Part shown: positions 8,031-63,815 of the stretch, one piece after another | Numbering within the stretch: position 1 is the first letter of the stretch | How the letters are laid out: each line of letters starts with the position of its first letter | NCBI GenBank assembly: GCA_041737595.1 | Contig: JBGSRK010000011.1 | Coordinates: 2,658-66,657, forward strand | Length of the DNA: 64,000 nt | DNA from: Patescibacteria group bacterium | GTDB lineage: Bacteria; Patescibacteriota; CPR2; UBA1875 | Direction of reading: 5' to 3' | The notes under the pieces: model-generated | Told to the model about the DNA's origin: nothing | Seen by the model: only the letters and a program-made list of their open reading frames with translations | Databases searched by the model: none | Program-made: the position numbers and the translations under genes

Positions 8031-8107
8031 GGGTGGTTAGCTCAGTTGGCTAGAGCGTCGCGTTGACATCGCGGAGGTCACAGGTTCGAGCCCTGTACCA
8101 CCCACCA
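8031..8107 (+). tRNA. tRNA-Val (anticodon GAC), CCA encoded
   Basis: Cloverleaf: acceptor GGGTGGT/ACCACCC, D-arm AGCTCAGTTGGCTAGAGC, anticodon stem TCGCG/CGCGG with loop TTGACAT, T-arm ACAGGTTCGAGCCCTGT, discriminator A plus CCA. Confidence 0.85.
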
Positions 8108-21113: not shown

Positions 21114-21527
21114 TTAAAAGCCTGCTTCGTCTAGCGCTTCATTAACTAACTTGTCAGCTTCTTTATTAAATTCACGTCGGATATGGCTAAAGGTGATATT
21201 TTTAAAAAATATTAAATCTTTAATTTGATTAAATAACTCTTTCATGCCAGGCTCTTTAACTTTATATACGCCTGTAAGTTGTTTAACAACAAGCTCAGAA
21301 TCAAGACGACATTCAATTTCTTCAGGTTCAAACTTTTGAGCTCTTTTTATTGCTATGACAAGCGCGGTATATTCTGCGACGTTGTTTGTTGCTTTACCAA
21401 TATATTCCTTATGTTCTTCAATTATATTGCCTAATTCATCATAAATAACAATGCCAATACCAGCTGGGCCAGGGTTATTGCGTGAACCGCCGTCTGTGTT
21501 TATTATTAATTTTTTATATTTTTTCAT
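21114..21527 (-). CDS. rnhA: ribonuclease HI
   Basis: INTDGGSRNNPGPAGIGIVI...EYTALVIAIK and the catalytic DEDD residues. Confidence 0.85.
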   Translation of the reverse strand: MKKYKKLIINTDGGSRNNPGPAGIGIVIYDELGNIIEEHKEYIGKATNNVAEYTALVIAIKRAQKFEPEEIECRLDSELVVKQLTGVYKVKEPGMKELFNQIKDLIFFKNITFSHIRREFNKEADKLVNEALDEAGF

Positions 21528-21676: not shown

Positions 21677-21876
21677 AGATATTCAAGAAAATATCTAGTT
21701 TTTTTGTATTATCATCTCGACTTTGTTTTGTCATTCTGAGCGTAGCGAAGAATCTAAATTTAGATCCTTCACATTTGTTCAGGATGACATATAGGGGAGG
21801 GGTTAATGTTTAAAAAGATATTCAAGAAAATATCTCGTACTTTAGTATTGTCATCCCGAGTGAAATCGAGGGATCT
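21677..21876. repeat. cluster of short palindromic repeat modules (family 1) plus a 20-bp direct repeat
   Basis: agatattcaagaaaatatct at 21677-21696 and 21816-21835. Module A tgtcattctgagcgtagcgaagaatct at 21729-21755. Module B gatccttcacatttgttcaggatgaca at 21763-21789. Variant ttgtcatcccgagtgaaatcgagggatct at 21848-21876. The same modules occur at 51731-51890 and 52225-52413. Confidence 0.85.
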
Positions 21877-21982
21877 AGGCTTTAAAGGGTTGCACCCTTT
21901 TAAAAAGGGACTGTCCCTTTTTAAGGGGTTCCATCAATTAAGGTTTAAAACAACTTTCCATCTTCACCTTAAAGCTTCAAGG

Positions 21983-24900
21983 ATGAATTGGTATAAAAGG
22001 TGGCATGATTACAAATTTTCACACCATGTACACTCTGCAACTGCAGTAGTGGCAATTTTTACATTAATTTTTTCTTTATTCATATTCCCTCATGAGACAA
22101 AAGCTTCACTTGTCGAAACAACCAAAACAATTACCAGTGAAAATGATTTTAATTTAGGTAGTCATTCTAATACCGAAACAACAAATATTTCTGGAGGCGA
22201 GGTTAGGCTTGAAACAATAGAAAATTGGTGGAATACATCTTGGACCAAAAGAAAAGAAATAACTGTTACAAATAGTAACCCTACTGTTTTAACTGATTAT
22301 GAATTAAAAATCACCACTAGTTATGATTCTGATATGCAAGCAGATTTTGATGATTTGCGATTTACTAATTTAGCTGGTACAGAACTTGGTTATTGGATTG
22401 AAACTAAAACCAATAGTGTTTCAGCTAACGTTTGGGTGAAAATAAATTCATTAGCAGCATCCAGCGATACAAAAATTTATGTTTATTATGGGAACAATAG
22501 TGTTTCCACTACAAGTAATAAAACAGTTATTTCTCCAATTGTAACGTCTGGCGGGACAACAACTACTTCTGGTTCAGCTGTAATTCATAAATTCACATCA
22601 ACAGGAACATTCACGGTTAGTGGTGGGAGCGGAACTGTCGAGGCACTTGTGGTTGCTGGCGGCGGTGGTGGAGGAGGGCGAATGGGTGGCGGCGGCGGAG
22701 CTGGAGGGTTGCTTTATAATGCAACATTACCGGTTAGTTCTCAGAGTTATACAGCTACAATAGGTGGCGGCGGTGCGGGCGGATATTCAGCTGCATCAGG
22801 TGTAAAAGGTTCAAATTCAGTTTTTAGTACACTCACTGCGATTGGCGGGGGAGGAGGCGGTTATTATAGTAATGTGGCTGGCATTACAGGTGGTTCTGGT
22901 GGTGGTGGTGGTGGCTCTTCAAGCACTACAACTGGGTCTGCTGGAGGATCAGAAACTTCTGGACAAGGATATTCAGGGGGTAGATCAGGTGGTTCTTCTT
23001 ATAAATACGATGGAGGTGGTGGTGGAGGTGCTGGTGGTTTAGGACAAGATGGTCAATCAAATCGAGGTGGGAATGGTGGGGTTGGTAAACAATATTCAAT
23101 CTCTGGTGTTACTACCTATTATGCAGGAGGTGGAGGTGGCGGCGGTTACTATTATTCCCCTTACTGCACAGCTACAAGTGTTGGTGGTTTGGGTGGAGGC
23201 GGTGCAGGTAATTGCCTGTCTGGTGGAAATGGTACAGCTGGTACTGCAAATACTGGCGGTGGTGGAGGCGGTGCAGGCTATTCAACTGGTAGAGGTGGTG
23301 CTGGTGGCTCAGGTATTGTAATTATCCGTTATGATTTTCGCACTCCAGCAGCCGTGGAACCTACTTTTACGTTTGGGAATGAAATTGCTTCTATAACATC
23401 TTCCGGTACATGGCAATCACCAACAGATATTGAAAATGGAGCAATTGACCTTATTTGGAATGGAGGATGGGGGACTCCAAACGGGTTAGAAGTAGACGTC
23501 ACAATCCCAACTAATTCTTTAATTAATTTTGAAATTCGTTCAAGTGCCATTGGTGGAGCTTCAGATGGCGACTGGTCTTCTTGGCAAAATATTGGCTCAG
23601 CGACCCCCGGAACAACTACTTATATGGTTACAAATGGGAATATGCCGAGTAATGCGAATTTACCAATTGGGACTAATCGATATGTACAATTAAGAGCAAA
23701 TTTAAGTAGTTCTGATGGAGTAGGCAACCCTCAATTAAAAGAAATGCGGCTTATCTATATGGCAGATAATAATGCACCAACAAACCCTAATTTAGTAGAA
23801 GGGTTTAAAGATGATTCTAAAAATAATACTGTTTCCGATGAAAATTGGTCAAATTCAAACACCCCATACTTTGAATGGACTGGAGAAGCTGATGGCCCTG
23901 GTGAATCTGGTATAGATGGTTATTGGGTATATTTTGGAACAGACCCAACAGCCGATCCTATGACTGCTGGAGCTTGGCAGGTCACAAATACATACCAAGC
24001 AAGTATTGATGAAGCTCAATCAGGGAAAACATATTATTTATGCATATCTACTCAAGATGAGGCATTAAACCGTTATTTAAATGGTGATCCAAATTATTTT
24101 AAAACATTCACTTACAAATTTGATAAAACCTTACCTCAGAATCCTTCAAATGTTACAGTTGACCCTTTTGGGTGGGCAACAGTTAATGAATTTGATTTTA
24201 ATTGGAATGCAGGGTCTGACCCAATGTTTAATGGTGATGCATCTGGGATTGCGGGTTATCAATACCGAGTCGGAGATACAGGTGACTGGAGTGTTACAGT
24301 AACAGATAGATCACTCAATAATGTAATTGCTTATCAAAATGGAGAAAATAACTTTTATTTAAGAACAGTTGATAACGCAGGGAATATTTCCGAACCTCCT
24401 GCACAAATAATTTACAGATACAATGCAGATGCACCTGAGAAACCAACATATCTTACTGTAAATCCTCAATCATCTCAGGAAAATAGTTTTACTTTTGAAT
24501 GGGACCTACCAGATTCATATAATGGCTCAATTAAAAAATATTATTATTCTGTAAATGCTATACCATCAGAAAATAATTCAGTTCAAATTAGTGTAAATAA
24601 CCCTCCTTCAAATGTGACAATTGATGGTGAGGGCCATGTAATACTTGATTCAATCACTGCTGCATCACAACAAGGTTTAAATACTTTTTATGTTGTAGCA
24701 ATGGATGATACAGAAAATATTAACTTTAATAATTATGAACAAATCCAATTTGAATGTAATACTCCTGCCCCTGGTTCTCCAACATCAGTTAAAATATTTG
24801 ATACCTCTGACAGAGAAGAACAAGAATATTCAATAGCACTTTCATGGAAAGAACCGACATTTACTGGGGTTGGTTTTTCCGGTTATATAATTGAACGTTC

Positions 24901-26281
24901 TGATGATAATAATCATTTTGATGTCATTGGAGCTGGTTCCTCACCTTCATTTATAGATATTGAACTTGAAAGTAGAACATATTATTATCGTGTTCTTTCA
25001 AAAGATAATTCAGGTAATGTTTCAGCCCCAAGTACTGTTGTTTCTATTGTCCCAACCGGTAAATATACTACCCCACCTGAACTTACTGATGGTCCAACAA
25101 TTGAATACAAGATTTCTTCAGCCAAAGTTTCTTGGCTTACAGATAGAGAAGCTTCATCATTTGTAGAAATAGGTGAAAATACAAATTATGGTTTAACCCA
25201 GGGTCAATTTGATTTTTTGAAAAAACATGAAGTAAATTTAGATAATTTAAAACCTGATACAATTTATCATTACAGAGTCAAATATGTAGATCAAGATGGT
25301 AATATTGGATATTCAGCTGATTCTACCTTTAAAACAGAACCAGCCCCAAGAGCAGCAAATGTAGAAATTTTTGATATCAGATTAACAACTGCTGTTATAA
25401 ATTGGAACACAACGGCCCCTGCAGAGTGTAGTGTCCTTATTGGTAAAAATTCAAATTATTCAACTACTATCGAAAATGTTTCAGGTGGGTTTACTAAATC
25501 CCACTCTGTTAGACTTTCGGATTTAGAACATTCATCGCTTTATCATTTTGCAATAAGAATAAAAGATATTGATGATAATGAAGTTATTTCAGATGATTAT
25601 TCCTTTGAGACATTAAAATTTCCTAAAGTATCTTTAGTAAGGCTTGAACCGATTAAAGATGCTTCAACTGCAACCATGAAATTTACCTGGACAACTAATG
25701 TTCCAACAACATCGGTGATAGAATATACTCCTCAAGGTGGACGAACACAAGAAGCTGTTAGTTCGAAATTAATAACTACACATGAGTTAACGATTCCAGG
25801 GCTTCAAGATAATACCCCATATGTCGTTCAAATTCTAGGAAGAGATCAATTTGGGAATCAACCAATTTCTGATAGACAGACATTTAAAACAGATTTTGAT
25901 ACTAGACCACCAAAAGTTAGTAATGTAACCAGTGAGTCAGAAATTCTTGGTTATGGTCTTGAAGCAAAAGGGCAACTTGTTGTTTACTGGGAAACAGATG
26001 AACCATCAACTTCTCAGGTTGAGTTTGGAATAGGCTCAAATAGTTCTTCTTACACAAATAAGACCCAAGAAGATACAAATTATGTTACATCACATGTAGT
26101 TATTGTTTCAGATTTAAAAACATCTGCTCCTTATCATATTCGTACTGCTTCGAAAGATCAATCTGGGAATGTTGGTTATTCAGAAGACCGTTCTACTCTT
26201 ATTGGGCAAGCTAGTAATTCAGTCTTTGATATAATAGTAGAAACATTAAATGCTACACTTGGCTGGTTATTTAGGCTATAA
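21983..26281 (+). CDS. giant cell-surface protein: N-terminal TM anchor, DUF2341 (concanavalin-like) domain, Gly-rich beta-helix-like region, then multiple fibronectin-III / purple-acid-phosphatase-N-like repeats
   Basis: WNTSWTKRKEITV...LGYWIETK...VWVKINSL...IYVYYGN matches DUF2341. ALVVAGGGGGGG...GGGGAGG...IVIIRYDF is a Gly-rich domain. At least five repeats have the pattern W.TDEPS...VEYG...Y...H.V.LSDLKP.T.YHYR. The ORF-track start at 21806 is inside the repeat/palindrome zone. The first plausible start is ATG at 21983 (MNWYKRW...TM), but the exact start is uncertain. Confidence 0.65.
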   Translation: MNWYKRWHDYKFSHHVHSATAVVAIFTLIFSLFIFPHETKASLVETTKTITSENDFNLGSHSNTETTNISGGEVRLETIENWWNTSWTKRKEITVTNSNPTVLTDYELKITTSYDSDMQADFDDLRFTNLAGTELGYWIETKTNSVSANVWVKINSLAASSDTKIYVYYGNNSVSTTSNKTVISPIVTSGGTTTTSGSAVIHKFTSTGTFTVSGGSGTVEALVVAGGGGGGGRMGGGGGAGGLLYNATLPVSSQSYTATIGGGGAGGYSAASGVKGSNSVFSTLTAIGGGGGGYYSNVAGITGGSGGGGGGSSSTTTGSAGGSETSGQGYSGGRSGGSSYKYDGGGGGGAGGLGQDGQSNRGGNGGVGKQYSISGVTTYYAGGGGGGGYYYSPYCTATSVGGLGGGGAGNCLSGGNGTAGTANTGGGGGGAGYSTGRGGAGGSGIVIIRYDFRTPAAVEPTFTFGNEIASITSSGTWQSPTDIENGAIDLIWNGGWGTPNGLEVDVTIPTNSLINFEIRSSAIGGASDGDWSSWQNIGSATPGTTTYMVTNGNMPSNANLPIGTNRYVQLRANLSSSDGVGNPQLKEMRLIYMADNNAPTNPNLVEGFKDDSKNNTVSDENWSNSNTPYFEWTGEADGPGESGIDGYWVYFGTDPTADPMTAGAWQVTNTYQASIDEAQSGKTYYLCISTQDEALNRYLNGDPNYFKTFTYKFDKTLPQNPSNVTVDPFGWATVNEFDFNWNAGSDPMFNGDASGIAGYQYRVGDTGDWSVTVTDRSLNNVIAYQNGENNFYLRTVDNAGNISEPPAQIIYRYNADAPEKPTYLTVNPQSSQENSFTFEWDLPDSYNGSIKKYYYSVNAIPSENNSVQISVNNPPSNVTIDGEGHVILDSITAASQQGLNTFYVVAMDDTENINFNNYEQIQFECNTPAPGSPTSVKIFDTSDREEQEYSIALSWKEPTFTGVGFSGYIIERSDDNNHFDVIGAGSSPSFIDIELESRTYYYRVLSKDNSGNVSAPSTVVSIVPTGKYTTPPELTDGPTIEYKISSAKVSWLTDREASSFVEIGENTNYGLTQGQFDFLKKHEVNLDNLKPDTIYHYRVKYVDQDGNIGYSADSTFKTEPAPRAANVEIFDIRLTTAVINWNTTAPAECSVLIGKNSNYSTTIENVSGGFTKSHSVRLSDLEHSSLYHFAIRIKDIDDNEVISDDYSFETLKFPKVSLVRLEPIKDASTATMKFTWTTNVPTTSVIEYTPQGGRTQEAVSSKLITTHELTIPGLQDNTPYVVQILGRDQFGNQPISDRQTFKTDFDTRPPKVSNVTSESEILGYGLEAKGQLVVYWETDEPSTSQVEFGIGSNSSSYTNKTQEDTNYVTSHVVIVSDLKTSAPYHIRTASKDQSGNVGYSEDRSTLIGQASNSVFDIIVETLNATLGWLFRL

Positions 26282-35475: not shown

Positions 35476-35862
35476 TGGTGGAGCTGGCGGGAATTGAACC
35501 CGCGTCCGAAAGCAAAAACAAAATAAATTTAGCAACCATACTTAGCTCTGTTGTTTTAGATACAGACTAAAGAACCAAGAAAAAATCTATATCCTATTTC
35601 TTATGTCTTAGACGTGATTAAGAAAATCACACGTAGCAGTCCGAAAATATAACACCTCGAACTCCCTATCGGACGTCAGGGGCGAGATGGTTGTATGCGA
35701 TTAGGCTACAACTGGTGCAAAAGTAGGCATGCTGAAAGCAGCTTTTACTTTTGCGGCAAGTGAGTTTACACTTGTTGTTTAACGCATTGAATAACGCGGA
35801 TACGTTACCGCGGATTGCATTATTTTGTTTTTAATGTACCTTCGTCGAAGCCTGGCAGCCCC
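35476..35862 (-). ncRNA. ssrA: transfer-messenger RNA (tmRNA)
   Basis: 5' end GGGGCUGCCAGGCUUCGACG and 3' end GGACGCGGGUUCAAUUCCCGCCAGCUCCACCA form the tRNA-Ala-like acceptor/T-arm with the G3·U pair. The internal tag ORF GCC GCA AAA GUA AAA GCU GCU UUC AGC AUG CCU ACU UUU GCA CCA GUU GUA GCC UAA encodes (A)AKVKAAFSMPTFAPVVA. smpB lies 1.5 kb away. Confidence 0.85.
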
Positions 35863-37854: not shown

Positions 37855-38003
37855 GAGACAGTTGAAAAACGTTTTTCTAATGTCATTGCGAGCCTGCGAA
37901 GCAATCTTTTTCGTACTTAGGGGTTAGATTGCCACGTCGTGAACTCCCTGCCTGCCGGCAGGCAGGCTCGCAATGACGTTTCGGGGAGTTTTTCAACAGT
38001 CTC
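37855..38003. mobile_element. MITE-like non-autonomous element (repeat family 2) with terminal inverted repeats and a target-site duplication
   Basis: Terminal inverted repeats gagacagttgaaaaac / gtttttcaacagtctc (15 of 16 matched). 10-bp direct repeat ctttcaattt immediately outside both ends (37845-37854 and 38004-38013). Internal 20-bp perfect palindrome cctgcctgccggcaggcagg and core tgtcattgcgagcctgcgaagcaatct. Confidence 0.75.
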
Positions 38004-49806: not shown

Positions 49807-51138
49807 ATGATGAAAATAAAAAATAAATTTATATTGGCGATAATAACTGTTCTGGTAATTACTTCATTTGCAGTTGCTATAAAACCAAATACAGCAAGTG
49901 CAGCATCTTGTAAAGTAACAAATGATATGAAAGTAAGATATATTAAAGGCGGATTTTATAATTATGCTAATGCATGGGAGGTCCACCCTTTAACGTGGGG
50001 ATATTACCATTTGTTTAAATATAATAATAAGGGTTGTGGAACTTGGGGATATTCTTATTATAATGTAAGAAGACCAAATGCAGCAGAAAAAAAGACACTC
50101 TTGACTAATAAATATGGTTCTAATATTGGCACAAAGGTAAATGACAATAAATATAAAAAAACTGATTATAATAGTTGCAGAGTTTCAGGAGGTAAAAAAC
50201 AGCACCAGATAACAAATTATATGTATTCTAACAATGGGTTATCAAAACAAGATTCAATTTGGGAAAGTTATGCTAATGCTACCTCAGCAGAGATAAGTGC
50301 TAAAAAATGTAATGCTACTAACTCTCCAGTTGTTAACCCTGATTCTCAATTAAAAATATATAGTTATATTAAAAGTAAATTTAGCGGTTCAGCAAAGACA
50401 ACCACAAATAGTGCAACATTTTCTTATTCTGCATTAAATTCATATGGTGGTTATACTCTAAAAAGTATTACCGTCCAAACTAAAGGTGCCCCAGCAGGTT
50501 ATACTAATGTTGTAGGACCTAAACCAAGTGGTTCAAAAACAATATCGGGTCTTAATAAAAATGCCTCATACCAAACATTTGTTGTTGCATCTTATAGTAA
50601 TGGTAAAGATCCAGCATATACTCCAAAACTTATTTTTAATTATAAAACAAGTAGTGGTAGCTATAACGGTAGCCCTAGTTCTGATAATAATGGTTCTACT
50701 CAACCAACGGTTACTAATAAATATAAACCTACTGTAACTGCCGGGTCTAATAAAACCACATATAAACTTGGTGAAACTGTTGTAATTTCTGCTAAGGGTG
50801 TTGATGCAGATGGGGATAAAGTTAAAATCAGATTACACGTTAAAAAACCAGATGGTAAAACTATCACTTCTGGTTGGAGTGCATTTATGAAAAGTGGTTA
50901 TACGTGGAAAACAGGTACTGGTGGATTTTATTTGACAGATAAGTCAATACTTGGGGGGAAATGGAGTACTATTCCTACTGGTAAATACACTATAACTGTT
51001 GAAATTGCTGATCAACCAGGTATTACTAGAATGGGTAAAGCTTTTTCATTCACGGTAAGTAAAACAGCAACAGCAACGCCTTTGAAGGCATTCCATAAAT
51101 TACTTCTCAAAGATTACCGACTACCAACTGTTTATTAG
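49807..51138 (+). CDS. secreted Cys-containing protein with a C-terminal Ig-like domain (uncharacterised)
   Basis: Signal peptide with AxA site (SAAS) and AGGAGG-like Shine-Dalgarno (AAGGGGGAATG). Confidence 0.5.
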   Translation: MMKIKNKFILAIITVLVITSFAVAIKPNTASAASCKVTNDMKVRYIKGGFYNYANAWEVHPLTWGYYHLFKYNNKGCGTWGYSYYNVRRPNAAEKKTLLTNKYGSNIGTKVNDNKYKKTDYNSCRVSGGKKQHQITNYMYSNNGLSKQDSIWESYANATSAEISAKKCNATNSPVVNPDSQLKIYSYIKSKFSGSAKTTTNSATFSYSALNSYGGYTLKSITVQTKGAPAGYTNVVGPKPSGSKTISGLNKNASYQTFVVASYSNGKDPAYTPKLIFNYKTSSGSYNGSPSSDNNGSTQPTVTNKYKPTVTAGSNKTTYKLGETVVISAKGVDADGDKVKIRLHVKKPDGKTITSGWSAFMKSGYTWKTGTGGFYLTDKSILGGKWSTIPTGKYTITVEIADQPGITRMGKAFSFTVSKTATATPLKAFHKLLLKDYRLPTVY

Positions 51139-51193
51139 AGGAATTAACTATTAAAGAGGCGCCAAGAGGCGTCTCTTTTGGTATAATTAGTTT

Positions 51194-51706
51194 ATGCGTG
51201 ACGATAAATGGTTATTTTCAAAATTAGATGAAGTTTGGGATAAATATTTTTCTGATCTTTCTCAGGATAATGACGTTCAAATAGTTTGGGGGAGAAAAGC
51301 AAAAACTCGTTTGGGTTCAATTAAACAAGAATTAAGTAAAAATTTAATTCTAAATTCAAAATTAAAAAATAATATTAAAAATATAAATCAAAAAATTCAT
51401 CCTGGTACTGTAATAACAATAAACTCACTTTTTAAAGATAAAAATATCCCAGAATTTGTTATTCTTGCCACAATTGCCCATGAACTTGCTCATTATGCTC
51501 ATGGTTTTCATTCTCCGATTGAACAAAAATATGCTACTCCTCATGCTGGTGGTATTATTCATAAGGAATTGAAAGAAAGAGGAATAGGAAACCTAGAGAA
51601 AAGACAGAAAAAATGGCTTAAAGAAAACTGGCGTAATTATATTTTAGAAAATTTACCTCAAAAACCAATTAATAGAAAAAGAAGATTTGTAATTAAATGG
51701 TTTTAA
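51194..51706 (+). CDS. SprT-like / DUF45-type HExxH zinc metallopeptidase-domain protein
   Basis: VQIVWGRKAKTRLGS...VILATIAHELAHYAH. Confidence 0.5.
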   Translation: MRDDKWLFSKLDEVWDKYFSDLSQDNDVQIVWGRKAKTRLGSIKQELSKNLILNSKLKNNIKNINQKIHPGTVITINSLFKDKNIPEFVILATIAHELAHYAHGFHSPIEQKYATPHAGGIIHKELKERGIGNLEKRQKKWLKENWRNYILENLPQKPINRKRRFVIKWF

Positions 51707-51730
51707 TTTTTTCTAGAGTTTAGTTTTTTA

Positions 51731-51890
51731 GATCCTTCACATTCGTTCAGGATGACAGCCATTTCTACAAAGGATGACAGCCACCTTGTCATTCTGAGTG
51801 GAACGAAGAATCTGGATGATAGATCCTTCACATTCGTTCAGGACGACAACTACCTTGTTTAGAATGACAATTACTTCTGCTAGAAATACC
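51731..51890. repeat. palindromic repeat modules (family 1) upstream of the GIY-YIG gene
   Basis: B gatccttcacattcgttcaggatgaca at 51731-51757, A ttgtcattctgagtggaacgaagaatct at 51786-51813, B at 51823-51848, plus ttgtttagaatgacaa. About 118 bp is near-identical to 52261-52378. Confidence 0.85.
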
Positions 51891-51951
51891 AACTTTTATT
51901 GTCATTTTTAGCACGGTCGAATAATCTAAAAGCTTATGTTAAAATATAATT

Positions 51952-52236
51952 GTGAAAACATATTATGTATATATTTTAACGAACTACACAAATAAGGTTT
52001 TATATATTGGTGTAACAAATAATTTAATAAGACGAATATATGAACATAAAAATAAGATAATTGACGGTTTTACAAAAAAATATAACATCAATAAATTGGT
52101 TTATTATGAGGTATTCAATAGAGCTAATGACGCAATAGTAGCTGAAAAGAAGCTTAAAGGATGGCTACGGGAAAAGAAAATAGAGTTAATAGTTTCAATG
52201 AACCCAGAATGGGAGGACCTTTCCTTGTCATTCTGA
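51952..52236 (+). CDS. stand-alone GIY-YIG nuclease-family protein (about 94 aa)
   Basis: YVYILTN...KVLYIGVTNNLIRRIYEHKN matches GIY...YIG with the conserved Arg/Glu/Asn. GTG start. The last five codons and the TGA stop lie inside repeat module A. Confidence 0.75.
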   Translation: MKTYYVYILTNYTNKVLYIGVTNNLIRRIYEHKNKIIDGFTKKYNINKLVYYEVFNRANDAIVAEKKLKGWLREKKIELIVSMNPEWEDLSLSF

Positions 52237-52413
52237 GTGGAACGAAGAATCTGGATGATAGATCCTTCACATTCGTTCAGGACGACAGCCATTTCTGCAA
52301 AGGATGACAGCCACCTTGTCATTCTGAGTGGAACAAAGAATCTGGATGATAGATCCTTCACATTCGTTCAGGATGACAACTACTTCTGTCATTCTGAGCA
52401 AAACGAAGAATCT
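52225..52413. repeat. palindromic repeat modules (family 1) downstream of the GIY-YIG gene
   Basis: A at 52225-52251, B at 52261-52287, A at 52316-52343, B at 52352-52378 and A-variant tgtcattctgagcaaaacgaagaatct at 52387-52413. Confidence 0.85.
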
Positions 52414-52939
52414 ATTTAAGTGTTTCTTTTAGATAAACCTCATTATTTTTTTTGAGTATTTTTATAGCTTCTTTTTTATGGGCCCACCCCGTTATAACAA
52501 CGTGTTTTTCTTCTAGGGCTTTATATTCTTCAAAAAAGTGAGCAATTTCTTTTCTTGTGTGTGATCTAATATCTTTTAGATTCTTTATTGCATCATATCT
52601 TGGGTTATGAGCCGGAACTGCTACAATTTTATTATCTATTTCACCACCATCTTCCATAAACATAATCCCAATTGGACGAACAGTAATAACACACCCAGGG
52701 AAAACTGGATAGCTTGTGAGTACAATAACATCCGTGTGGTCGCCATCTTCTGCTCTTGTTTCTGGGATAAACCCATAATCTACAGGATAATGGAGGGAAG
52801 AATGAAGAGTTCTATCAAGCTTCATTACATCTAATTCTTCATCATATTCATATTTATTATCGGAATCTTTAGGTATTTCTATTACAGCGTTAAACTCATT
52901 TGGAAATTTTTTACCGATTGGTAGTTTTTTAATGCTCAA
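52412..52939 (-). CDS. ppa: inorganic pyrophosphatase (family I)
   Basis: VIEIPKDSDNKYEYDE...HYPVDYGFIPETRAEDGDHTDVIV. AGGAGGCTTCTTG Shine-Dalgarno. Confidence 0.9.
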   Translation of the reverse strand: MSIKKLPIGKKFPNEFNAVIEIPKDSDNKYEYDEELDVMKLDRTLHSSLHYPVDYGFIPETRAEDGDHTDVIVLTSYPVFPGCVITVRPIGIMFMEDGGEIDNKIVAVPAHNPRYDAIKNLKDIRSHTRKEIAHFFEEYKALEEKHVVITGWAHKKEAIKILKKNNEVYLKETLK

Positions 52940-53060
52940 GAAGCCTCCTTATTTAATAACTTAAATAGTATAATTGAAAGCAGAAGTATTGTAAATGATT
53001 CAAAAAGCACCTTTAAACTTATTTTAAGATTGTTATAATAGATATATCAAGGAGGGGACA

Positions 53061-53426
53061 ATAGTTTTTATCAATTTTGTAATCTGGTGGTACTCAAAAG
53101 GAATTTCAGAGTTAATTTCTTTTTTAGGAAACCTTTTTTTATATATAAGTAATTACTTTTCTATTAAAGAGATTCTTTTAAGTTTTTTTTCTCCCTGGAA
53201 AAGGTTTGTTGCAGAAAGAAGACCTGGACTTGATGGACTTCGTGACTGGATACTTGATAATATAATTTCAAGGTTAGTCGGGATGATAATGAGAATATTT
53301 ATTATTATTATCTATATTTTTACTATAATTTTGTATATTACTTTTTCTATTACTTCTTTTTTCTTTTGGGTTTTTATGCCATTTTTATTATTTTATTCTA
53401 TCTACCTAATATTTAGAGGTCTGTAA
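53061..53426 (+). CDS. small polytopic membrane protein with no canonical start codon (tentative)
   Basis: Open frame from 53028 to TAA at 53424-53426, overlapping the next ATG. It is hydrophobic, and AAGGAGGGG Shine-Dalgarno sits 5 nt before ATA at 53061. The first ATG is at about codon 70. Confidence 0.3.
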   Translation: MVFINFVIWWYSKGISELISFLGNLFLYISNYFSIKEILLSFFSPWKRFVAERRPGLDGLRDWILDNIISRLVGMIMRIFIIIIYIFTIILYITFSITSFFFWVFMPFLLFYSIYLIFRGL

Positions 53427-56737: not shown

Positions 56738-56878
56738 GAGACCGTTAAAAAAATCTCCGAAAAGTCATTGCGAGGAGTATTTTTAGTAAAATACGACGTG
56801 GCAATCTAACCCTTAAGCATGAAAGAGATTGCTTCGCAGGCTCGCAATGACGTTAGAAAAACTTTTTTCAATAGTCTT
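56738..56878. mobile_element. second, degenerate copy of the MITE-like element (family 2), inverted relative to 37855-38003
   Basis: gagaccgttaaaaaaatctccgaaaagtcattgcgagg ... cgacgtggcaatctaaccc ... gcaggctcgcaatgacgttagaaaaacttttttcaatagtctt. Its arms align to the reverse complement of the 37855-38003 arms, and cacgacgtggcaatctaacccc is shared. Confidence 0.65.
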
Positions 56879-60733: not shown

Positions 60734-60945
60734 TGAAAAAGCTAATAATTTTTAATTTAATAATATTCTTTATAATATTTTCAGTAATTTTTTATAAAGG
60801 TTCAATTAATGCTGACATTTGGGGGAAATGGCAAGATTTTGAAATTGTTTTCCCGATTATGATATCATTTTTCCTTGCTGTAATTTTTATGACGCCAGTT
60901 ATGTTGATTGAGTTTTTATTACAAAAAAGGAAAAATAACAAATGA
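60733..60945 (+). CDS. small membrane protein between pheS and pheT (tentative)
   Basis: 70 aa with two TM helices. ATGA overlaps at both ends. Confidence 0.35.
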   Translation: MKKLIIFNLIIFFIIFSVIFYKGSINADIWGKWQDFEIVFPIMISFFLAVIFMTPVMLIEFLLQKRKNNK

Positions 60946-63815
60946 AAATATCTTTAAATTGGTTAAAAGAATATGTTGATACAAGTAACTTAACTCCTGA
61001 GCAGATTTCTGAAAAATTGACTCTTTCGGGGTCTGAGGTGGATTCTTTACACAAGCCTGTAAATTATAAAAATATTGTAGTAGGTGAAATAAAAGAAATA
61101 ATAAAACATCCAAACGCCGATAAACTCCAAATAACAAAAACCGATGTGGGTAAAAAAAATGGTGGCATTCTTCAAATAGTTTGTGGTGCACCAAATATTA
61201 AAGTTGGTCAGAAAATCCCTGTTGCTTTAGTTGGTGCCAAATTTGATGATTTTGAGATAAAAAAAGCAAAAATTAGAGATATTGAATCATTTGGAATGCT
61301 TTGTTCCGAAAAAGAACTTGGAATATCAGATGAACATTCTGGAATTATGATTTTAAACGAAAAAGCAACTGTCGGGCAAGATTTTTCAACTTATATTGGG
61401 GCTGATTATGTTTTTGATATAGATATCACTCCAAATCGAGGTGATTGTTTATCAGTTATTGGTATTGCAAGAGAACTTGCGGCAACATTAAATAAGAATG
61501 TTATTAATCTTAAATTCCCAAACGCAACAGTTAAATCTAAAAAAACAGTCAATGTGTTAGTTAAAGAAAAAGATATATGTCCTCGTTATATTTCTAAGGT
61601 AATAGAAGGGGTCAAACTAGGTCCTTCGCCGAAATGGATGCAAGAAAGACTTATTTTAGCTGGTGTGCGGCCAATAAATAATATAGTTGATGTTGCAAAT
61701 TATGTAATGCTTGAATGGGGACAACCACTACATACTTTTGATGGAGATAAAATCAATGGGGATATTATTGTAAGAAAAGCAAAAGAGGGTGAAAAGATAA
61801 TCACTCTTGATGGGCAAGAAAGAAAATTAATTTCAAAAGATATTATTATTTGTGATAGTAAAAAACCAATTGCTCTTGCAGGTGTTATGGGTGGTCTCAA
61901 CTCTGAAATAGATGATAAAACTAAAACAGTAGTACTTGAGGCAGCTGTTTTTGATCGAGTTATGATAAGAAAAACAGCTCAACGACTAAATCTTAGGTCA
62001 GAAGCATCAAATAGATTTGAAAAAGGTATTCCATTAAATTTACCAGAAATAGCAATTGAACGAGCAGCAAGTTTATTAACAGAAATCCCAGGTGGTCTTT
62101 CGGGACAAATGCCAGTGGTAAAACCTAAGGCAGGGAAAAATATTGATGTATTATCACAATGGTTATGGATTCAACATATTGGGATGAGGTTCTCACGTTT
62201 AAAACAAATTATTGGTATAAAAATTTCAGAAGAAAAAGTAATAACCATATTATCTTCTTTAGGGTTTGAAGTGGGAAAATTTGATTTTAAAAAAGAAGCA
62301 AGAAATCAAGTTGGAAAACCATATATTCTTGGTGCTAGTTACAAAACCTATGGGGACATGGCCTTTGATTGCTCATATTTGACTGATTATATATATTCAA
62401 AAATTGGTAAATTTATAGGTTATACTTCGTTGGCTCAATATGAATTAGGAACTTCAATAAAGGATAATGAATTATTACCAGGGGATATTTTATTTATAAA
62501 AGGGCAGATAGATAAATCTGTAACCGATCATTATTTTATCCCAGACGAAAAGACTGGCTATAAAAAAATATTACTAAAAAATAAAAAAGAAGTGGGGCAT
62601 AACGCAATTTATATTGGAGATGGCAGAATAATACATGCTAAGCATTTTGAATATAATTTAAAAACAAAAAAATGGGAGAAATTAAAAGAGGGGAAAGTGA
62701 TAGAAGAAGATGTTACTGTATTTACAAAAAATCCTGATTATCTTGGTGCCAAAAGATATATTACTCCAGGGGTTGATTATTTAGCCATTACAGTTCCTTG
62801 GTGGAGATTAGATATATTAACAGAAGAAGATATATTTGAAGAAATCGCAAGAATTTATGGTTATGACAACTTACCATCAACCCTACCTAGTGGCGAGCTC
62901 CCAATATTTGAAGAAAATAATAAAATAAAAATTTCTAATGACTTAAAATTAATTCTTTCTGGGATCGGTTTTTCGGAAGTCTATAATTATTCATTTGTAT
63001 CAAAAAAACAGATTGAGCTATTTGATGGTAATACTGATAATTCATACATTATTTCAAATCCAACAAATCCTGAACAAAATTATATGAGAACTTCATTGGC
63101 CCCAATACTAATAAATAATGCTGCCACAAACCAAGATAATTTTGATAATTTTAAGATATTTGAAATCGCTCCTGTATATAAAAAATTGAAAAATAATACA
63201 TCAGAAGAACCTTTGTTTTTAGGAATGATTATAAAATCAAATAAAAAAAATAATACTTCGGCCTTTTATGAAACAAAAGGAGCAATAGATATTCTATTTA
63301 ATAAAATAAATTTAGGTAAAGCAGAATATAAGGAAGACAAAATAGAGTATTTATCAGAAGGACAAATGGCTTTTATATATATAAATAATATTAAAGTAGG
63401 TCATATCGGGATGCTAAGTGACAAAATAAAACATGAATATAAGATTAAAACACCAATGGCACTTGCTGAAATTGAAATATCAAAATTATTACCACTCTAT
63501 GGCGAAATTATTCAATATAAAGAAATATCAAAATTTCCTTTTATTGTCCGTGATATCAATATATTATTCCCCTTAACAGTAAGCGCTAAAACAATTACCC
63601 AAGAATTCTCGAAATTCCAAATTGATAAGCTTATTTCTATTGAACTTGTAGATATATTTGAGGGAGGTAGCTTGCCACCCGATAAGAAAAGTGTCACAAT
63701 TAGATTAACTTTTGGTTTGAAAGATAAAACTCTTAAAGAAGAGGAAATCGTAGAAAGCCTGAGTTTAATTACAAAAAAATTGATAAACAAAACCGGTGGT
63801 GAGATTCGTAGTTAG
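60942..63815 (+). CDS. pheT: phenylalanyl-tRNA synthetase beta subunit carrying an inserted NlpC/P60-like domain within B5
   Basis: tRNA-binding N-domain, B3/4, B5 (ISEEKVITILSSLGFEV ... ITVPWWRLDILTEEDIFEEIARIYGYDNLP), B6/7 and the C-terminal FDX-ACB-like domain. About 166 aa are inserted between the B5 halves, carrying DCSYLTDYIY, PGDILFI and GHNAIYIGDGRIIHA. Confidence 0.9.
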   Translation: MKISLNWLKEYVDTSNLTPEQISEKLTLSGSEVDSLHKPVNYKNIVVGEIKEIIKHPNADKLQITKTDVGKKNGGILQIVCGAPNIKVGQKIPVALVGAKFDDFEIKKAKIRDIESFGMLCSEKELGISDEHSGIMILNEKATVGQDFSTYIGADYVFDIDITPNRGDCLSVIGIARELAATLNKNVINLKFPNATVKSKKTVNVLVKEKDICPRYISKVIEGVKLGPSPKWMQERLILAGVRPINNIVDVANYVMLEWGQPLHTFDGDKINGDIIVRKAKEGEKIITLDGQERKLISKDIIICDSKKPIALAGVMGGLNSEIDDKTKTVVLEAAVFDRVMIRKTAQRLNLRSEASNRFEKGIPLNLPEIAIERAASLLTEIPGGLSGQMPVVKPKAGKNIDVLSQWLWIQHIGMRFSRLKQIIGIKISEEKVITILSSLGFEVGKFDFKKEARNQVGKPYILGASYKTYGDMAFDCSYLTDYIYSKIGKFIGYTSLAQYELGTSIKDNELLPGDILFIKGQIDKSVTDHYFIPDEKTGYKKILLKNKKEVGHNAIYIGDGRIIHAKHFEYNLKTKKWEKLKEGKVIEEDVTVFTKNPDYLGAKRYITPGVDYLAITVPWWRLDILTEEDIFEEIARIYGYDNLPSTLPSGELPIFEENNKIKISNDLKLILSGIGFSEVYNYSFVSKKQIELFDGNTDNSYIISNPTNPEQNYMRTSLAPILINNAATNQDNFDNFKIFEIAPVYKKLKNNTSEEPLFLGMIIKSNKKNNTSAFYETKGAIDILFNKINLGKAEYKEDKIEYLSEGQMAFIYINNIKVGHIGMLSDKIKHEYKIKTPMALAEIEISKLLPLYGEIIQYKEISKFPFIVRDINILFPLTVSAKTITQEFSKFQIDKLISIELVDIFEGGSLPPDKKSVTIRLTFGLKDKTLKEEEIVESLSLITKKLINKTGGEIRS

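What the first reader, a model, noticed from the sequence alone, without database searches (positions are those of the whole stretch)
51731..52413. GIY-YIG mini-nuclease gene framed by about 118-bp direct repeats built from palindromic modules: candidate composite selfish element
A 94-codon stand-alone GIY-YIG gene (51952-52236) sits between two near-identical direct repeat blocks (51731-51848 and 52261-52378). Each block is module B (gatccttcacattcgttcaggaYgaca), a spacer, module A (ttgtcattctgagtggaacRaagaatct), then B again. Extra A copies follow at 52225-52251 and 52387-52413. The gene's last codons and its TGA stop are supplied by module A, so the ORF boundary is set by the repeat. The same A/B modules and a 20-bp repeat recur at 21677-21876, where they overlap the annotated 5' end of the giant surface-protein gene. 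This looks like a repeat-delimited mobile or selfish unit rather than ordinary intergenic DNA. It is the best candidate in the window for an undescribed element.
Basis: seen in the sequence. Interest (0 to 1): 0.72.

Follow-up and report, generated by a model that had tools for sequence, protein, structure and literature searches.

The report
Ssn nuclease gene with hairpin repeats
The small GIY-YIG gene and its flanking repeats are real. They belong to the Ssn system described in 2025, a 94-residue nuclease that cuts single-stranded DNA next to a hairpin repeat; here it sits in a Patescibacteria-like genome with a repeat variant that the published search pattern misses.

Summary
A 94-codon GIY-YIG gene (51952-52236) lies inside an array of 25-26-nt repeats and is framed by a 125-nt direct repeat (97% identical). 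Its last codons and TGA stop come from a repeat.

The pairing is not new. Chenal et al. 2025 (PMC11893778) described the Ssn family: 94-aa single-domain GIY-YIG nucleases. These bind a CGTC-tagged hairpin repeat (NTS/SRM) as single-stranded DNA only and cut just upstream of it. Their genes are typically flanked by those repeats.

The window protein is 47% identical to the Neisseria gonorrhoeae gene I take to be the ssnA orthologue. Its catalytic Tyr/Tyr/Glu spacing is the same as in SsnA.

In 80 related loci from many phyla, 60 carry this module within 100 nt of the gene. That is 60-90 times the density seen 3-10 kb away.

What is new is modest: the host lineage, and a G.A-bulged repeat variant that the published SRM pattern never matches (0 of 464). 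Mobility remains unproven.

The parts
51952..52236 (+). ssn-family gene: 94-aa single-domain GIY-YIG nuclease, GTG start, TGA stop inside a repeat
   Evidence: ORF. Pfam GIY-YIG E=4e-15. 47% identity over 85 aa with the N. gonorrhoeae gene taken as the ssnA orthologue, E=4e-28. Y7, Y18, R28, H32, E65 and N84 are invariant across 49 homologues.
51731..51756 (-).
   Evidence: covariance model 35.4 bits
51788..51812 (+).
   Evidence: 43.1 bits
51822..51847 (-). SRM-like hairpin module (B)
   Evidence: 31.7 bits
51900..51927 (+). Degenerate module copy 24 nt upstream of the start codon (gtcatttttagcacggtcgaataatc). It occupies the position where most homologues carry an intact + module.
   Evidence: Read. 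Weak model hit, 13.3 bits, E about 1. The upstream nearest module is + in 40 of 49 loci that have one within 100 nt upstream.
52227..52251 (+). Module (A) that supplies the last three codons and the TGA stop of the gene
   Evidence: 23 of the 120 best homologues end in a ...DLSLSF-type C-terminus, and 18 end in ...SLRSE/SLRSG from a minus-oriented module.
52261..52286 (-). Module (B), the downstream inverted partner
52318..52342 (+). Module (A), one substitution in the 3' G.A position
   Evidence: 34.5 bits
52352..52377 (-). Module (B)
52388..52412 (+). Module (A variant). Its last base at 52412 is also the last stop-codon base of the convergent pyrophosphatase ORF (52412-52939, minus strand).
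51729..51853 (.). Left copy of the 125-nt direct repeat (modules -, +, -)
52259..52383 (.). Right copy of the 125-nt direct repeat, 97% identical
21730..21875 (.). Gene-less cluster of three modules (+21730-21754, -21763-21788, +21850-21875) upstream of the 1491-codon surface-protein ORF

Best explanation
This is an Ssn locus: an Ssn-family nuclease gene embedded in an array of its cognate hairpin repeats (SRM, Ssn-related motifs).

Shown here:
- The 94-aa protein is a single-domain GIY-YIG enzyme with all catalytic residues present.
- It is 47% identical to the Neisseria gene I take to be the ssnA orthologue.
- Each repeat has the published SRM layout: an unpaired 5' (C/T)GTC tag, a hairpin whose first two pairs are A-T and T-A, and a conserved C just 3' of the stem. 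The middle of the stem differs from the published type: it is a tandem G.A/A.G mismatch followed by a 2-bp, GNA-loop mini-hairpin.
- The stem covaries across genomes.
- Modules cluster tightly around homologous genes in many phyla, most often as + module, gene, - module.

Inferred by homology with the characterised Neisseria and Wolbachia enzymes (PMC11893778):
- The protein binds the module only when the DNA is single-stranded, and only on the strand that reads TGTCAT...GATCT.
- It cuts a few nucleotides 5' of the tag and does not act on duplex DNA or RNA.
- Modules alternate in orientation, so each strand of a doublet offers one cleavable site.
- The likely consequence is processing of single-stranded DNA that carries modules, for example incoming DNA or replication and recombination intermediates. 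In Neisseria this lowers recombination of repeat-bearing transforming DNA.

The role in this host, and how the arrays arose, are not known.
For: Protein:
- Pfam GIY-YIG only, 94 aa.
- tblastn finds the N. gonorrhoeae gene at 47% identity, 90% coverage, E=2e-18 in a 7.3-Gb database. Pairwise BLASTP gives E=4e-28.
- That Neisseria locus carries 8 matches to the published SRM pattern, with NTS-type sequence, in 3.2 kb.
- Y7/Y18/E65 have the same spacing as the Y6/Y17/E64 mutated in SsnA.
- The nearest solved structures are the uncharacterised UPF0213 GIY-YIG proteins 1ZG2 and 1YWL.

Repeat:
- Eleven copies in the window, none expected by chance.
- Copies were collected using only the unpaired anchors, with no pairing requirement. 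Of these, 71 of 81 have all five outer pairs and 61 of 81 have both inner pairs.
- 94.8% of cells are paired, against 78.5% in shuffles and 17-51% when partners are slid. 83 cells carry a change on both sides, against 24.5 in shuffles; 0 of 500 shuffles reach the observed values.
- The flanking 5' T and 3' T were not selected for, yet are 87% and 81% conserved.

Association:
- 60 of 80 loci have a module within 100 nt of the gene and 41 have one on both sides; 29 of those 41 are + gene -.
- Density is 8.9-10 per kb within 100 nt, against 0.11-0.16 per kb at 3-10 kb.
- 13 of the 17 loci without a G.A-type module within 300 nt instead have fully paired NTS-like hairpins beside the gene. One example is GTCATTCCCGCGAAGGCGGGAATC on both sides in a Rickettsiaceae contig.

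Literature: PMC11893778 describes exactly this gene-repeat pairing and the biochemistry. PMC3733652 had catalogued CGTC/TGTC-tagged REPs as lacking a dedicated enzyme.
Against: - None of the window's modules, and 0 of 464 G.A-type modules in related loci, match the published degenerate SRM search sequence. Only 2 of the 80 related loci have a literal SRM match within 500 nt of the gene.
- Nearest-neighbour DNA folding gives only -0.9 to -2.6 kcal/mol for single modules, no better than shuffles. Those parameters do not credit sheared G.A pairs or GNA triloops, so the hairpin rests on covariation, not on energy.
- Assignment to CDD cd10448 and a direct comparison with the N. meningitidis protein CAX49033.1 could not be run. 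The Neisseria comparison used the N. gonorrhoeae gene, whose reading frame appears to lack an in-frame ATG.
- No biochemistry exists for any G.A-type pair, and Ssn specificity is known to depend on sequence as well as shape.
Confidence: 0.85

Rival explanations
1. An active selfish mobile element, with the GIY-YIG nuclease as its only protein. The gene bracketed by inverted hairpin modules would be the autonomous unit. The gene-less + / - doublets would be its non-autonomous miniature derivatives. Movement would go through single-stranded intermediates or nick-induced gene conversion between dispersed modules. This does not exclude the Ssn identity; it concerns what the system does.
For: - IS-like architecture: + module, gene, - module in 29 of 41 two-sided loci. 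One 343-nt unit exactly fills the carA-carB spacer.
- The closest homologues (74-78% identical) lie in unrelated contexts.
- The unit is absent after the sprT-like gene in the nearest relatives found.
- Identity of 59-72% across about 15 phyla.
- Gene-less doublets are scattered in the flanks.
- An in-frame module insertion sits in one carA gene and is absent from another carA that is 55% identical.
- The authors of PMC11893778 themselves note the IS-like layout.
Against: - GIY-YIG enzymes hydrolyse DNA and have no known strand-joining activity.
- In the three loci that hold two gene copies, the copies are divergent. Only one pair shares any detectable DNA similarity (73% over 166 nt), so there is no sign of recent transposition.
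- No target-site duplication or clean filled-versus-empty pair was found.
- None of 120 virus-contig loci carrying the module carries the gene. Modules therefore far outnumber genes, as with domesticated REP systems.
- High identity across phyla may simply reflect strong constraint on a 94-residue enzyme.
Confidence: 0.25
2. Generic REP-like or RNA-level elements (terminators, mRNA stabilisers, small RNAs) that merely accumulate in intergenic DNA, with the GIY-YIG gene beside them by chance.
For: - Modules occur without the gene at 21730-21875 and in at least 120 virus-derived contigs.
- They are intergenic and they covary, as an RNA hairpin also would.
Against: - Module density is 60-90 times higher next to the gene, with an orientation rule, across phyla.
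- No Rfam family matches near its gathering score (best 20.4 bits against a threshold of 42).
- There are no terminator-like sites and no T-run after the hairpins.
- The conserved tandem G.A exists on one strand only, yet modules are found in both orientations relative to neighbouring genes.
- SsnA does not bind RNA.
Confidence: 0.04
3. An assembly artefact: the 125-nt direct repeat and the array result from mis-joining of repeat-containing reads in a metagenome-assembled genome.
For: An independent short-read assembly of the same sequence breaks inside the first repeat block, 91 nt after the sprT-like gene.
Against: - The two repeat copies differ at specific positions (97%), and the module subtypes alternate regularly.
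- The same layout, a gene inside an alternating array, recurs in independent assemblies from other phyla, such as L007, L013, L060 and L075.
Confidence: 0.03

Closest known systems
Ssn nucleases with NTS/SRM repeats (SsnA of Neisseria meningitidis; Chenal et al. 2025, Nat Commun 16:2388, PMC11893778)
   Same: - A 94-aa single-domain GIY-YIG protein with the same Tyr/Tyr/Glu spacing, 47% identical to the Neisseria gene taken as the orthologue.
- The gene is flanked by oriented hairpin repeats with a 5' (C/T)GTC tag, A-T and T-A as the first stem pairs, and a conserved C after the stem.
- Repeats also occur as clusters elsewhere. Here one lies upstream of a large surface-protein gene, as is reported for Neisseria membrane-protein genes.
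   Different: - The repeat has a tandem G.A/A.G internal loop and a GNA mini-hairpin where NTS has continuous G-C pairs. It never matches the published SRM search sequence.
- The host appears to be Patescibacteria (32% G+C).
- The gene sits inside a 91-nt-period array, and a repeat supplies its stop codon.
- No biochemistry exists for this pair, and the role in this host is unknown.
CGTC-tagged REP superfamily (Di Nocera et al. 2013, PMC3733652), including Neisseria dRS3 and Rickettsia RPE-4/RPE-6
   Same: A terminal CGTC or TGTC tag, A-T residues in the first two stem positions, a short unpaired tail, and predominance of dimers in opposite orientation.
   Different: - That catalogue describes 8-9-bp uninterrupted stems with 4-5-nt loops.
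- It reported no associated enzyme. Here the stem is interrupted and the associated enzyme is evident.
REP/BIME repeats with RAYT (TnpA-REP) genes, and REPINs
   Same: A single-copy nuclease gene flanked by inverted copies of a hairpin repeat. The repeat is otherwise dispersed as doublets and arrays. Hairpins with an unpaired 5' tetranucleotide tag are recognised as single-stranded DNA.
   Different: RAYTs are HUH Y1 enzymes that cut and rejoin DNA through a covalent tyrosine intermediate. This protein is a GIY-YIG hydrolase with no known joining activity, and the tag is GTC rather than GTAG.
Free-standing and intron-encoded GIY-YIG homing endonucleases (I-TevI, T4 Seg proteins)
   Same: The same catalytic domain and residues. 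The gene is found inserted between conserved host genes.
   Different: Homing endonucleases carry a separate DNA-binding domain (roughly 200-250 aa in total, from general knowledge of the family) and cut duplex DNA. This protein is the bare 94-aa domain, and its characterised relatives cut only single-stranded DNA.

Membership tests
Ssn nuclease family (PMC11893778) | Single-domain GIY-YIG protein of about 94 aa (under 150 aa) | tested here: met
   94 aa. Pfam GIY-YIG covers residues 4-76, and the only other Pfam hit is the overlapping, weaker T5orf172 match.
Ssn nuclease family (PMC11893778) | BLASTP hit to N. meningitidis SsnA at E<1e-10 with at least 75% query coverage | tested here: met
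   Tested against the N. gonorrhoeae gene, not CAX49033.1 itself. Result: 47% identity over 85 of 94 residues, E=2e-18 in the database search and E=4e-28 pairwise. I infer that this gene is the ssnA orthologue from its NTS-rich locus: 8 matches to the published SRM pattern in 3.2 kb.
Ssn nuclease family (PMC11893778) | Catalytic residues corresponding to Y6, Y17 and E64 of SsnA | tested here: met
   Y7, Y18 and E65 are invariant in 49 homologues, together with R28, H32 and N84. The spacings of 11 and 47 residues equal those in SsnA.
Ssn nuclease family (PMC11893778) | Top CDD assignment is cd10448 (GIY-YIG_unchar_3) | not testable with these tools
   No CDD search is available. NCBIfam has no specific model for it.
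Ssn nuclease family (PMC11893778) | SRM repeats within 500 bp on both sides of the gene, using the published pattern HGTCWYN(0-2)YYVSBRHN(0-5)WNVSBRGN(0-2)RNCYNB | tested here: not met
   The published pattern gives 0 matches in the whole window and 0 of 464 on G.A-type modules. Only 2 of 80 related loci match within 500 nt. The same script does find 8 matches in the Neisseria locus.
Ssn nuclease family (PMC11893778) | Flanking oriented hairpin repeats with a 5' GTC tag and a 3' C. [quoted passage not shown] | tested here: met
   Modules lie on both sides of the gene. A tag plus 5-bp stem plus C hairpin lies within 500 nt in 78 of 80 related loci, and on both sides in 59 of 80, against 18 and 4 in shuffled flanks.
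Ssn nuclease family (PMC11893778) | Cleavage of single-stranded DNA only, a few nucleotides upstream of the repeat | not testable with these tools
   Needs purified protein and labelled oligonucleotides.
REP-RAYT / REPIN systems | The associated enzyme is an HUH Y1 (IS200/IS605 TnpA-like) transposase | tested here: not met
   The protein is GIY-YIG with no HUH domain.
Insertion sequences / MITEs | A recognised transposase, target-site duplications, and several near-identical copies per genome | tested here: not met
   There is no transposase domain. Gene copies within one locus are divergent. No duplications were seen at the element ends in the loci read.
GIY-YIG homing endonucleases | Nuclease domain joined to a separate DNA-binding domain | tested here: not met
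   The protein is 94 aa, the nuclease domain only. The match to the group I intron endonuclease model is 16.9 bits against a cut-off of 56.
Known RNA families (Rfam 15) | A match at or near the family's gathering score | tested here: not met
   The best hit is wcaG at 20.4 bits against a gathering score of 42.

The most novel reading that the evidence does not exclude
The gene plus its two inverted hairpin modules would be an autonomous mobile element of a new mechanistic class, with a bare GIY-YIG single-strand nuclease as its only protein. The abundant gene-less doublets and arrays, including in-frame insertions in genes such as carA, would be its non-autonomous offspring. The G.A-bulged repeat type seen here would be a separate specificity lineage that has spread across phyla, including Patescibacteria.
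Probability: 0.2. Interest if true: 0.7.

Novelty: new member of a known kind. Interest (0 to 1): 0.3.

Why it matters
As a discovery it is ordinary. The gene-repeat pairing and its biochemistry were published in 2025.

Three points still have some value.

1. Ssn enzymes are being developed as sequence-specific cutters of single-stranded DNA, and each enzyme-repeat pair is a potential new specificity. The clade around this protein uses a repeat with a G.A internal loop that the published search pattern does not detect (2 of 80 loci by the literal pattern, 78 of 80 by a tag-plus-hairpin definition). Published counts may therefore underestimate repeat-associated homologues, and a whole specificity class remains uncharacterised.
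2. The only demonstrated role of Ssn is in natural transformation of Neisseria. Its presence in what appears to be a reduced Patescibacteria genome is a different setting in which to ask what it does.
3. These repeats generate annotation artefacts. They supply stop codons and C-terminal tails such as LSF or SLRSE, give false N-terminal extensions (here on the giant surface-protein gene), and break assemblies.

Tried and rejected
- Rfam scan of 51000-53000 at E up to 10: only chance-level hits.
- DNA folding of single modules and a doublet: the predicted structures agree with the covariation model, but the energies are no better than shuffles, so they add no support.
- Promoter and terminator scans: no terminator-like sites; promoter-like sites at chance level.
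- Looking up the window protein by exact sequence to recover its source contig failed twice. The neighbouring sprT-like protein recovered only a 4.6-kb contig that ends in the repeats.
- A clean empty site in a close relative could not be found. The nearest sprT-like homologues are 74% identical or less, and their loci are rearranged: they have a 123-aa gene where the window has ssn plus ppa.
- Recent duplicates that would define element ends: the three loci with two gene copies hold divergent copies.
- Anti-phage defence models (PADLOC) and NCBIfam gave nothing specific.
- Literature searches found nothing when combining GIY-YIG with REP/RAYT, COG2827, RNA motif or inverted repeats, or when using the literal module sequence. 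The Ssn paper surfaced only when dRS3, CGTC and BIME were added. No follow-up paper on Ssn is in the library.
- Considered and rejected: that A and B are two distinct modules, that the repeats are terminators, and that the gene is a classical homing endonuclease.

Full report
**1. What is in the sequence**

The region reads as the first-stage reader described it. A GTG-started ORF at 51952-52236 encodes 94 residues. Its only clear Pfam domain is GIY-YIG (PF01541, E=4e-15, residues 4-76); the one other hit is a weaker, overlapping T5orf172 match.

A 125-nt direct repeat (51729-51853 and 52259-52383, 97% identical) brackets the gene. It has an internal 91-nt period. A short module recurs eight times here and three times at 21730-21875. 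One spacing class alone gives 6 matches where dinucleotide shuffles give none.

The gene's final codons and stop (TTG TCA TTC TGA) belong to the module at 52227-52251.

**2. A and B are one module**

The plan is: GTC, a 5-nt arm, GA, a short inner hairpin, GA, the complementary arm, C.

The arms differ between copies but stay complementary: ATTCT/AGAAT, ATCCT/AGGAT and ATCCC/GGGAT. So do the inner two pairs: GT..AC, AC..GT and GC..GC.

The locus is therefore an alternating array, written in the gene's orientation:

- minus, plus, minus;
- a degenerate plus copy at 51900-51927;
- the gene;
- plus, minus, plus, minus, plus.

Plus/minus pairs form doublets with their tags pointing outward and 8-9-nt spacers.

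**3. The hairpin is supported by covariation, not by energy**

I collected copies near homologous genes using only the unpaired anchors (GTC..GA..GA..C, 7-nt centre), so pairing was not selected for.

- 71 of 81 copies have all five outer pairs, and 61 of 81 have both inner pairs.
- On 58 distinct sequences, 94.8% of cells are paired, against 78.5% in column shuffles and 17-51% with slid partners.
- 83 cells carry changes on both sides, against 24.5 in shuffles.
- No shuffle in 500 reaches the observed values.

A covariance model built from these sequences recovers all eleven window copies at 31.7-46.1 bits.

Nearest-neighbour DNA folding predicts the same shape, but only at -0.9 to -2.6 kcal/mol, which is no better than shuffles. 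Those parameters ignore sheared G.A pairs and GNA triloops. The commonest centre, GCGAAGC, is, from my own knowledge of the literature, a well-known very stable DNA mini-hairpin. That is a lead, not a test.

**4. The gene-repeat association is general**

The protein has thousands of relatives. The best 120 are 66-100% identical and come from Patescibacteria, Ignavibacteria, Gammaproteobacteria, Clostridia and Aquificae, among others. Many of them end in ...DLSLSF or ...SLRSE/SLRSG, which are translations of the module in its two orientations; 41 of 120 do so.

A scan of one genome per species found at least 597 loci. The best 80 span about fifteen phyla at 59-72% identity. A scanner that allows one mismatch finds 464 modules in these 1.11 Mb, against 43 in shuffled sequence. 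Their distribution relative to the gene is as follows:

| Measure | Value |
|---|---|
| Loci with a module within 100 nt of the gene | 60 of 80 |
| Loci with a module within 100 nt on both sides | 41 of 80 |
| Density within 100 nt | 8.9-10 per kb |
| Density at 3-10 kb | 0.11-0.16 per kb |
| Nearest upstream module, plus : minus | 40 : 9 |
| Nearest downstream module, minus : plus | 37 : 15 |

The common form is thus plus module, gene, minus module. In one case the unit is a 343-nt insert that fills the carA-carB spacer.

Of the 17 loci without a G.A-type module within 300 nt, 13 have fully paired hairpins with the same tag and tail next to the gene.

The reverse does not hold. None of 120 virus-derived contigs that carry the module carries the gene, so modules greatly outnumber genes.

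**5. It is a known system**

Di Nocera et al. 2013 (PMC3733652) defined a superfamily of CGTC-tagged palindromic repeats. The tag is often TGTC, A-T residues fill the first two stem positions, and dimers dominate. They noted that it lacked a dedicated enzyme.

Chenal et al. 2025 (PMC11893778) then reported the following:

- The 94-aa single-domain GIY-YIG protein SsnA of Neisseria meningitidis binds the repeat CGTCATTCCCGCGMAVGCGGGAATCYRG (NTS).
- It binds only single-stranded DNA, and only in one orientation.
- It cuts a few nucleotides upstream of the repeat.
- Cleavage was most affected by the three nucleotides before the palindrome. The C just after the palindrome was the most critical position for binding.
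- Homologues across phyla (CDD cd10448) are flanked by related motifs (SRM): 71% have at least one and 42% have them on both sides.
- Enzymes from two further Neisseria species and from Wolbachia behave in the same way.
- In N. meningitidis the enzyme lowers transformation by repeat-bearing DNA.
- The authors note the IS-like repeat-gene-repeat layout and the analogy with REP/RAYT, and they propose domestication.

**6. Membership tests**

- By luck, two N. gonorrhoeae chromosomes are filed as plasmids in the plasmid collection. There the window protein finds a homologous gene at 47% identity, 90% coverage, E=2e-18 (pairwise E=4e-28).
- That locus holds eight matches to the published SRM pattern, all of NTS type, in 3.2 kb. 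On that basis I take the gene to be the ssnA orthologue.
- Y7, Y18 and E65 of the window protein are spaced exactly as the mutated Y6, Y17 and E64 of SsnA. They are invariant in 49 homologues, together with R28, H32 and N84.
- The modules have the tag, the A-T/T-A first pairs and the 3' C.
- One defining feature fails if taken literally. The published degenerate SRM sequence matches nothing in the window and none of the 464 G.A-type modules. It finds a motif within 500 nt of the gene in only 2 of the 80 related loci.
- A definition by tag, 5-bp stem and C finds a motif in 78 of 80 loci, and on both sides in 59 of 80. Shuffled flanks give 18 and 4.

I therefore file the protein as an Ssn-family member. 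The repeat is an SRM variant: two central base pairs of the NTS stem are replaced by a tandem G.A mismatch. CDD assignment and enzymology could not be tested.

**7. How it most likely works**

Shown: the anatomy, the covariation, the association, and homology to characterised enzymes.

Inferred:

- The protein binds a module on the strand that reads TGTCAT...GATCT when the DNA is single-stranded, and nicks a few nucleotides 5' of the tag.
- Alternating orientation places one such site on each strand of every doublet.
- What this achieves in this host is unknown. Processing of incoming or replicative single-stranded DNA is the only demonstrated precedent.

**8. Mobility**

Points in favour of past insertion:

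- The closest homologues lie between carA and carB in two genomes whose CarA proteins are only 55% identical, and between thyX and dut in another.
- The nearest relatives of this genome at the sprT-like/clpB-like locus lack both gene and modules.
- One carA carries an in-frame module insertion that the other lacks.

Points against an active element:

- No joining chemistry is known for GIY-YIG enzymes.
- Duplicated genes within a locus are divergent.
- No target duplications or clean empty sites were found.

I rate an active selfish element at about 0.2-0.25. It does not exclude the Ssn identity.

**9. Verdict**

However, it is a member of the Ssn/SRM system published in 2025, not an undescribed element, and mobility is not shown.

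The new content is limited to the host lineage, the G.A-type repeat variant missed by the published pattern, and the annotation artefacts that these repeats cause.

Noticed in passing
window 37881-37978 and 56765-56851: A second hairpin-repeat subfamily with the same GTC tag but stem ATTGC/GCAAT. It occurs as two intergenic plus/minus doublets, one arm carrying a long insertion in the loop. Each doublet lies inside a roughly 130-150-nt unit bounded by about 16-nt imperfect inverted repeats (GAGACAGTTGAAAAAC ... GTTTTTCAACAGTCTC). No matching nuclease gene is in the window.
   Followed up: partly
window 21677-21697 and 21816-21836: A 21-nt direct repeat, AAGATATTCAAGAAAATATCT. Each copy lies upstream of a plus-oriented module, by about 13 nt (21816 copy) to about 32 nt (21677 copy), so the duplicated unit there is longer than the module itself.
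   Followed up: no
window 21806-26281: The first 59 codons of the 1491-codon surface-protein ORF translate repeat DNA (...VLSSRVKSRDL...). An in-frame ATG at 21983 starts MNWYKRWHDYKF... followed by a hydrophobic helix and is the likelier start. The protein has Gly_rich_2, DUF2341 and fibronectin type III domains.
   Followed up: partly
L201 5240-5312: A Patescibacteria carA gene carries a 29-residue in-frame insertion (36 gap columns in all in the pairwise alignment) made of a hairpin module and a partial partner. The insertion is absent from a carA that is 55% identical. This is direct evidence that modules can land inside coding sequence.
   Followed up: partly
L201 6001-6285 and L203 2150-2428: Two different genomes carry the ssn unit in the same place, between carA and carB. 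The Ssn proteins are 79% identical and the CarA proteins only 55%. I did not resolve whether this is one old insertion or a preferred site.
   Followed up: no
L212 (NZ_CP119142.1 1880219-1883473): Two 2.17-Mb Neisseria gonorrhoeae 'plasmid' records in the plasmid collection are chromosome-sized. In this one, the reading frame of the ssnA-like gene has no in-frame ATG near the start, and the ATG frame stops after 10 codons. The gene may be frameshifted in this strain.
   Followed up: no
Viral-contig loci L081-L200: At least 120 IMG/VR contigs contain exact copies of the G.A-type module GTCATYCTGAGCGNAGCGAAGRATC, and none has an Ssn-like gene in the fetched stretch. I did not examine whether these are true phage genomes or host fragments.
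   Followed up: partly
window 51707-53425 compared with L208, L210 and L211: Relatives have sprT-like gene, 123-aa gene, clpB-like gene, rmuC. The window has the ssn array and a convergent inorganic pyrophosphatase gene in place of the 123-aa gene, so the whole interval has been rearranged.
   Followed up: partly
window 60942-63815: The phenylalanyl-tRNA synthetase beta-chain ORF has an NlpC/P60 domain hit (residues 458-531, E=6e-12) between its B3/4 and B5 domains. That is an unusual insertion.
   Followed up: no
window 21114-21527 (-): A stand-alone RNase H-like protein (RVT_3/RNase H, 137 aa) is encoded on the minus strand, its 5' end about 200 nt from the gene-less module cluster.
   Followed up: no
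window 35476-35862 (-) and 8031-8107 (+): A tmRNA gene (tag peptide VNSLAAKVKAAFSMPTFAPVVA) and a tRNA-Val(GAC) gene.
   Followed up: no
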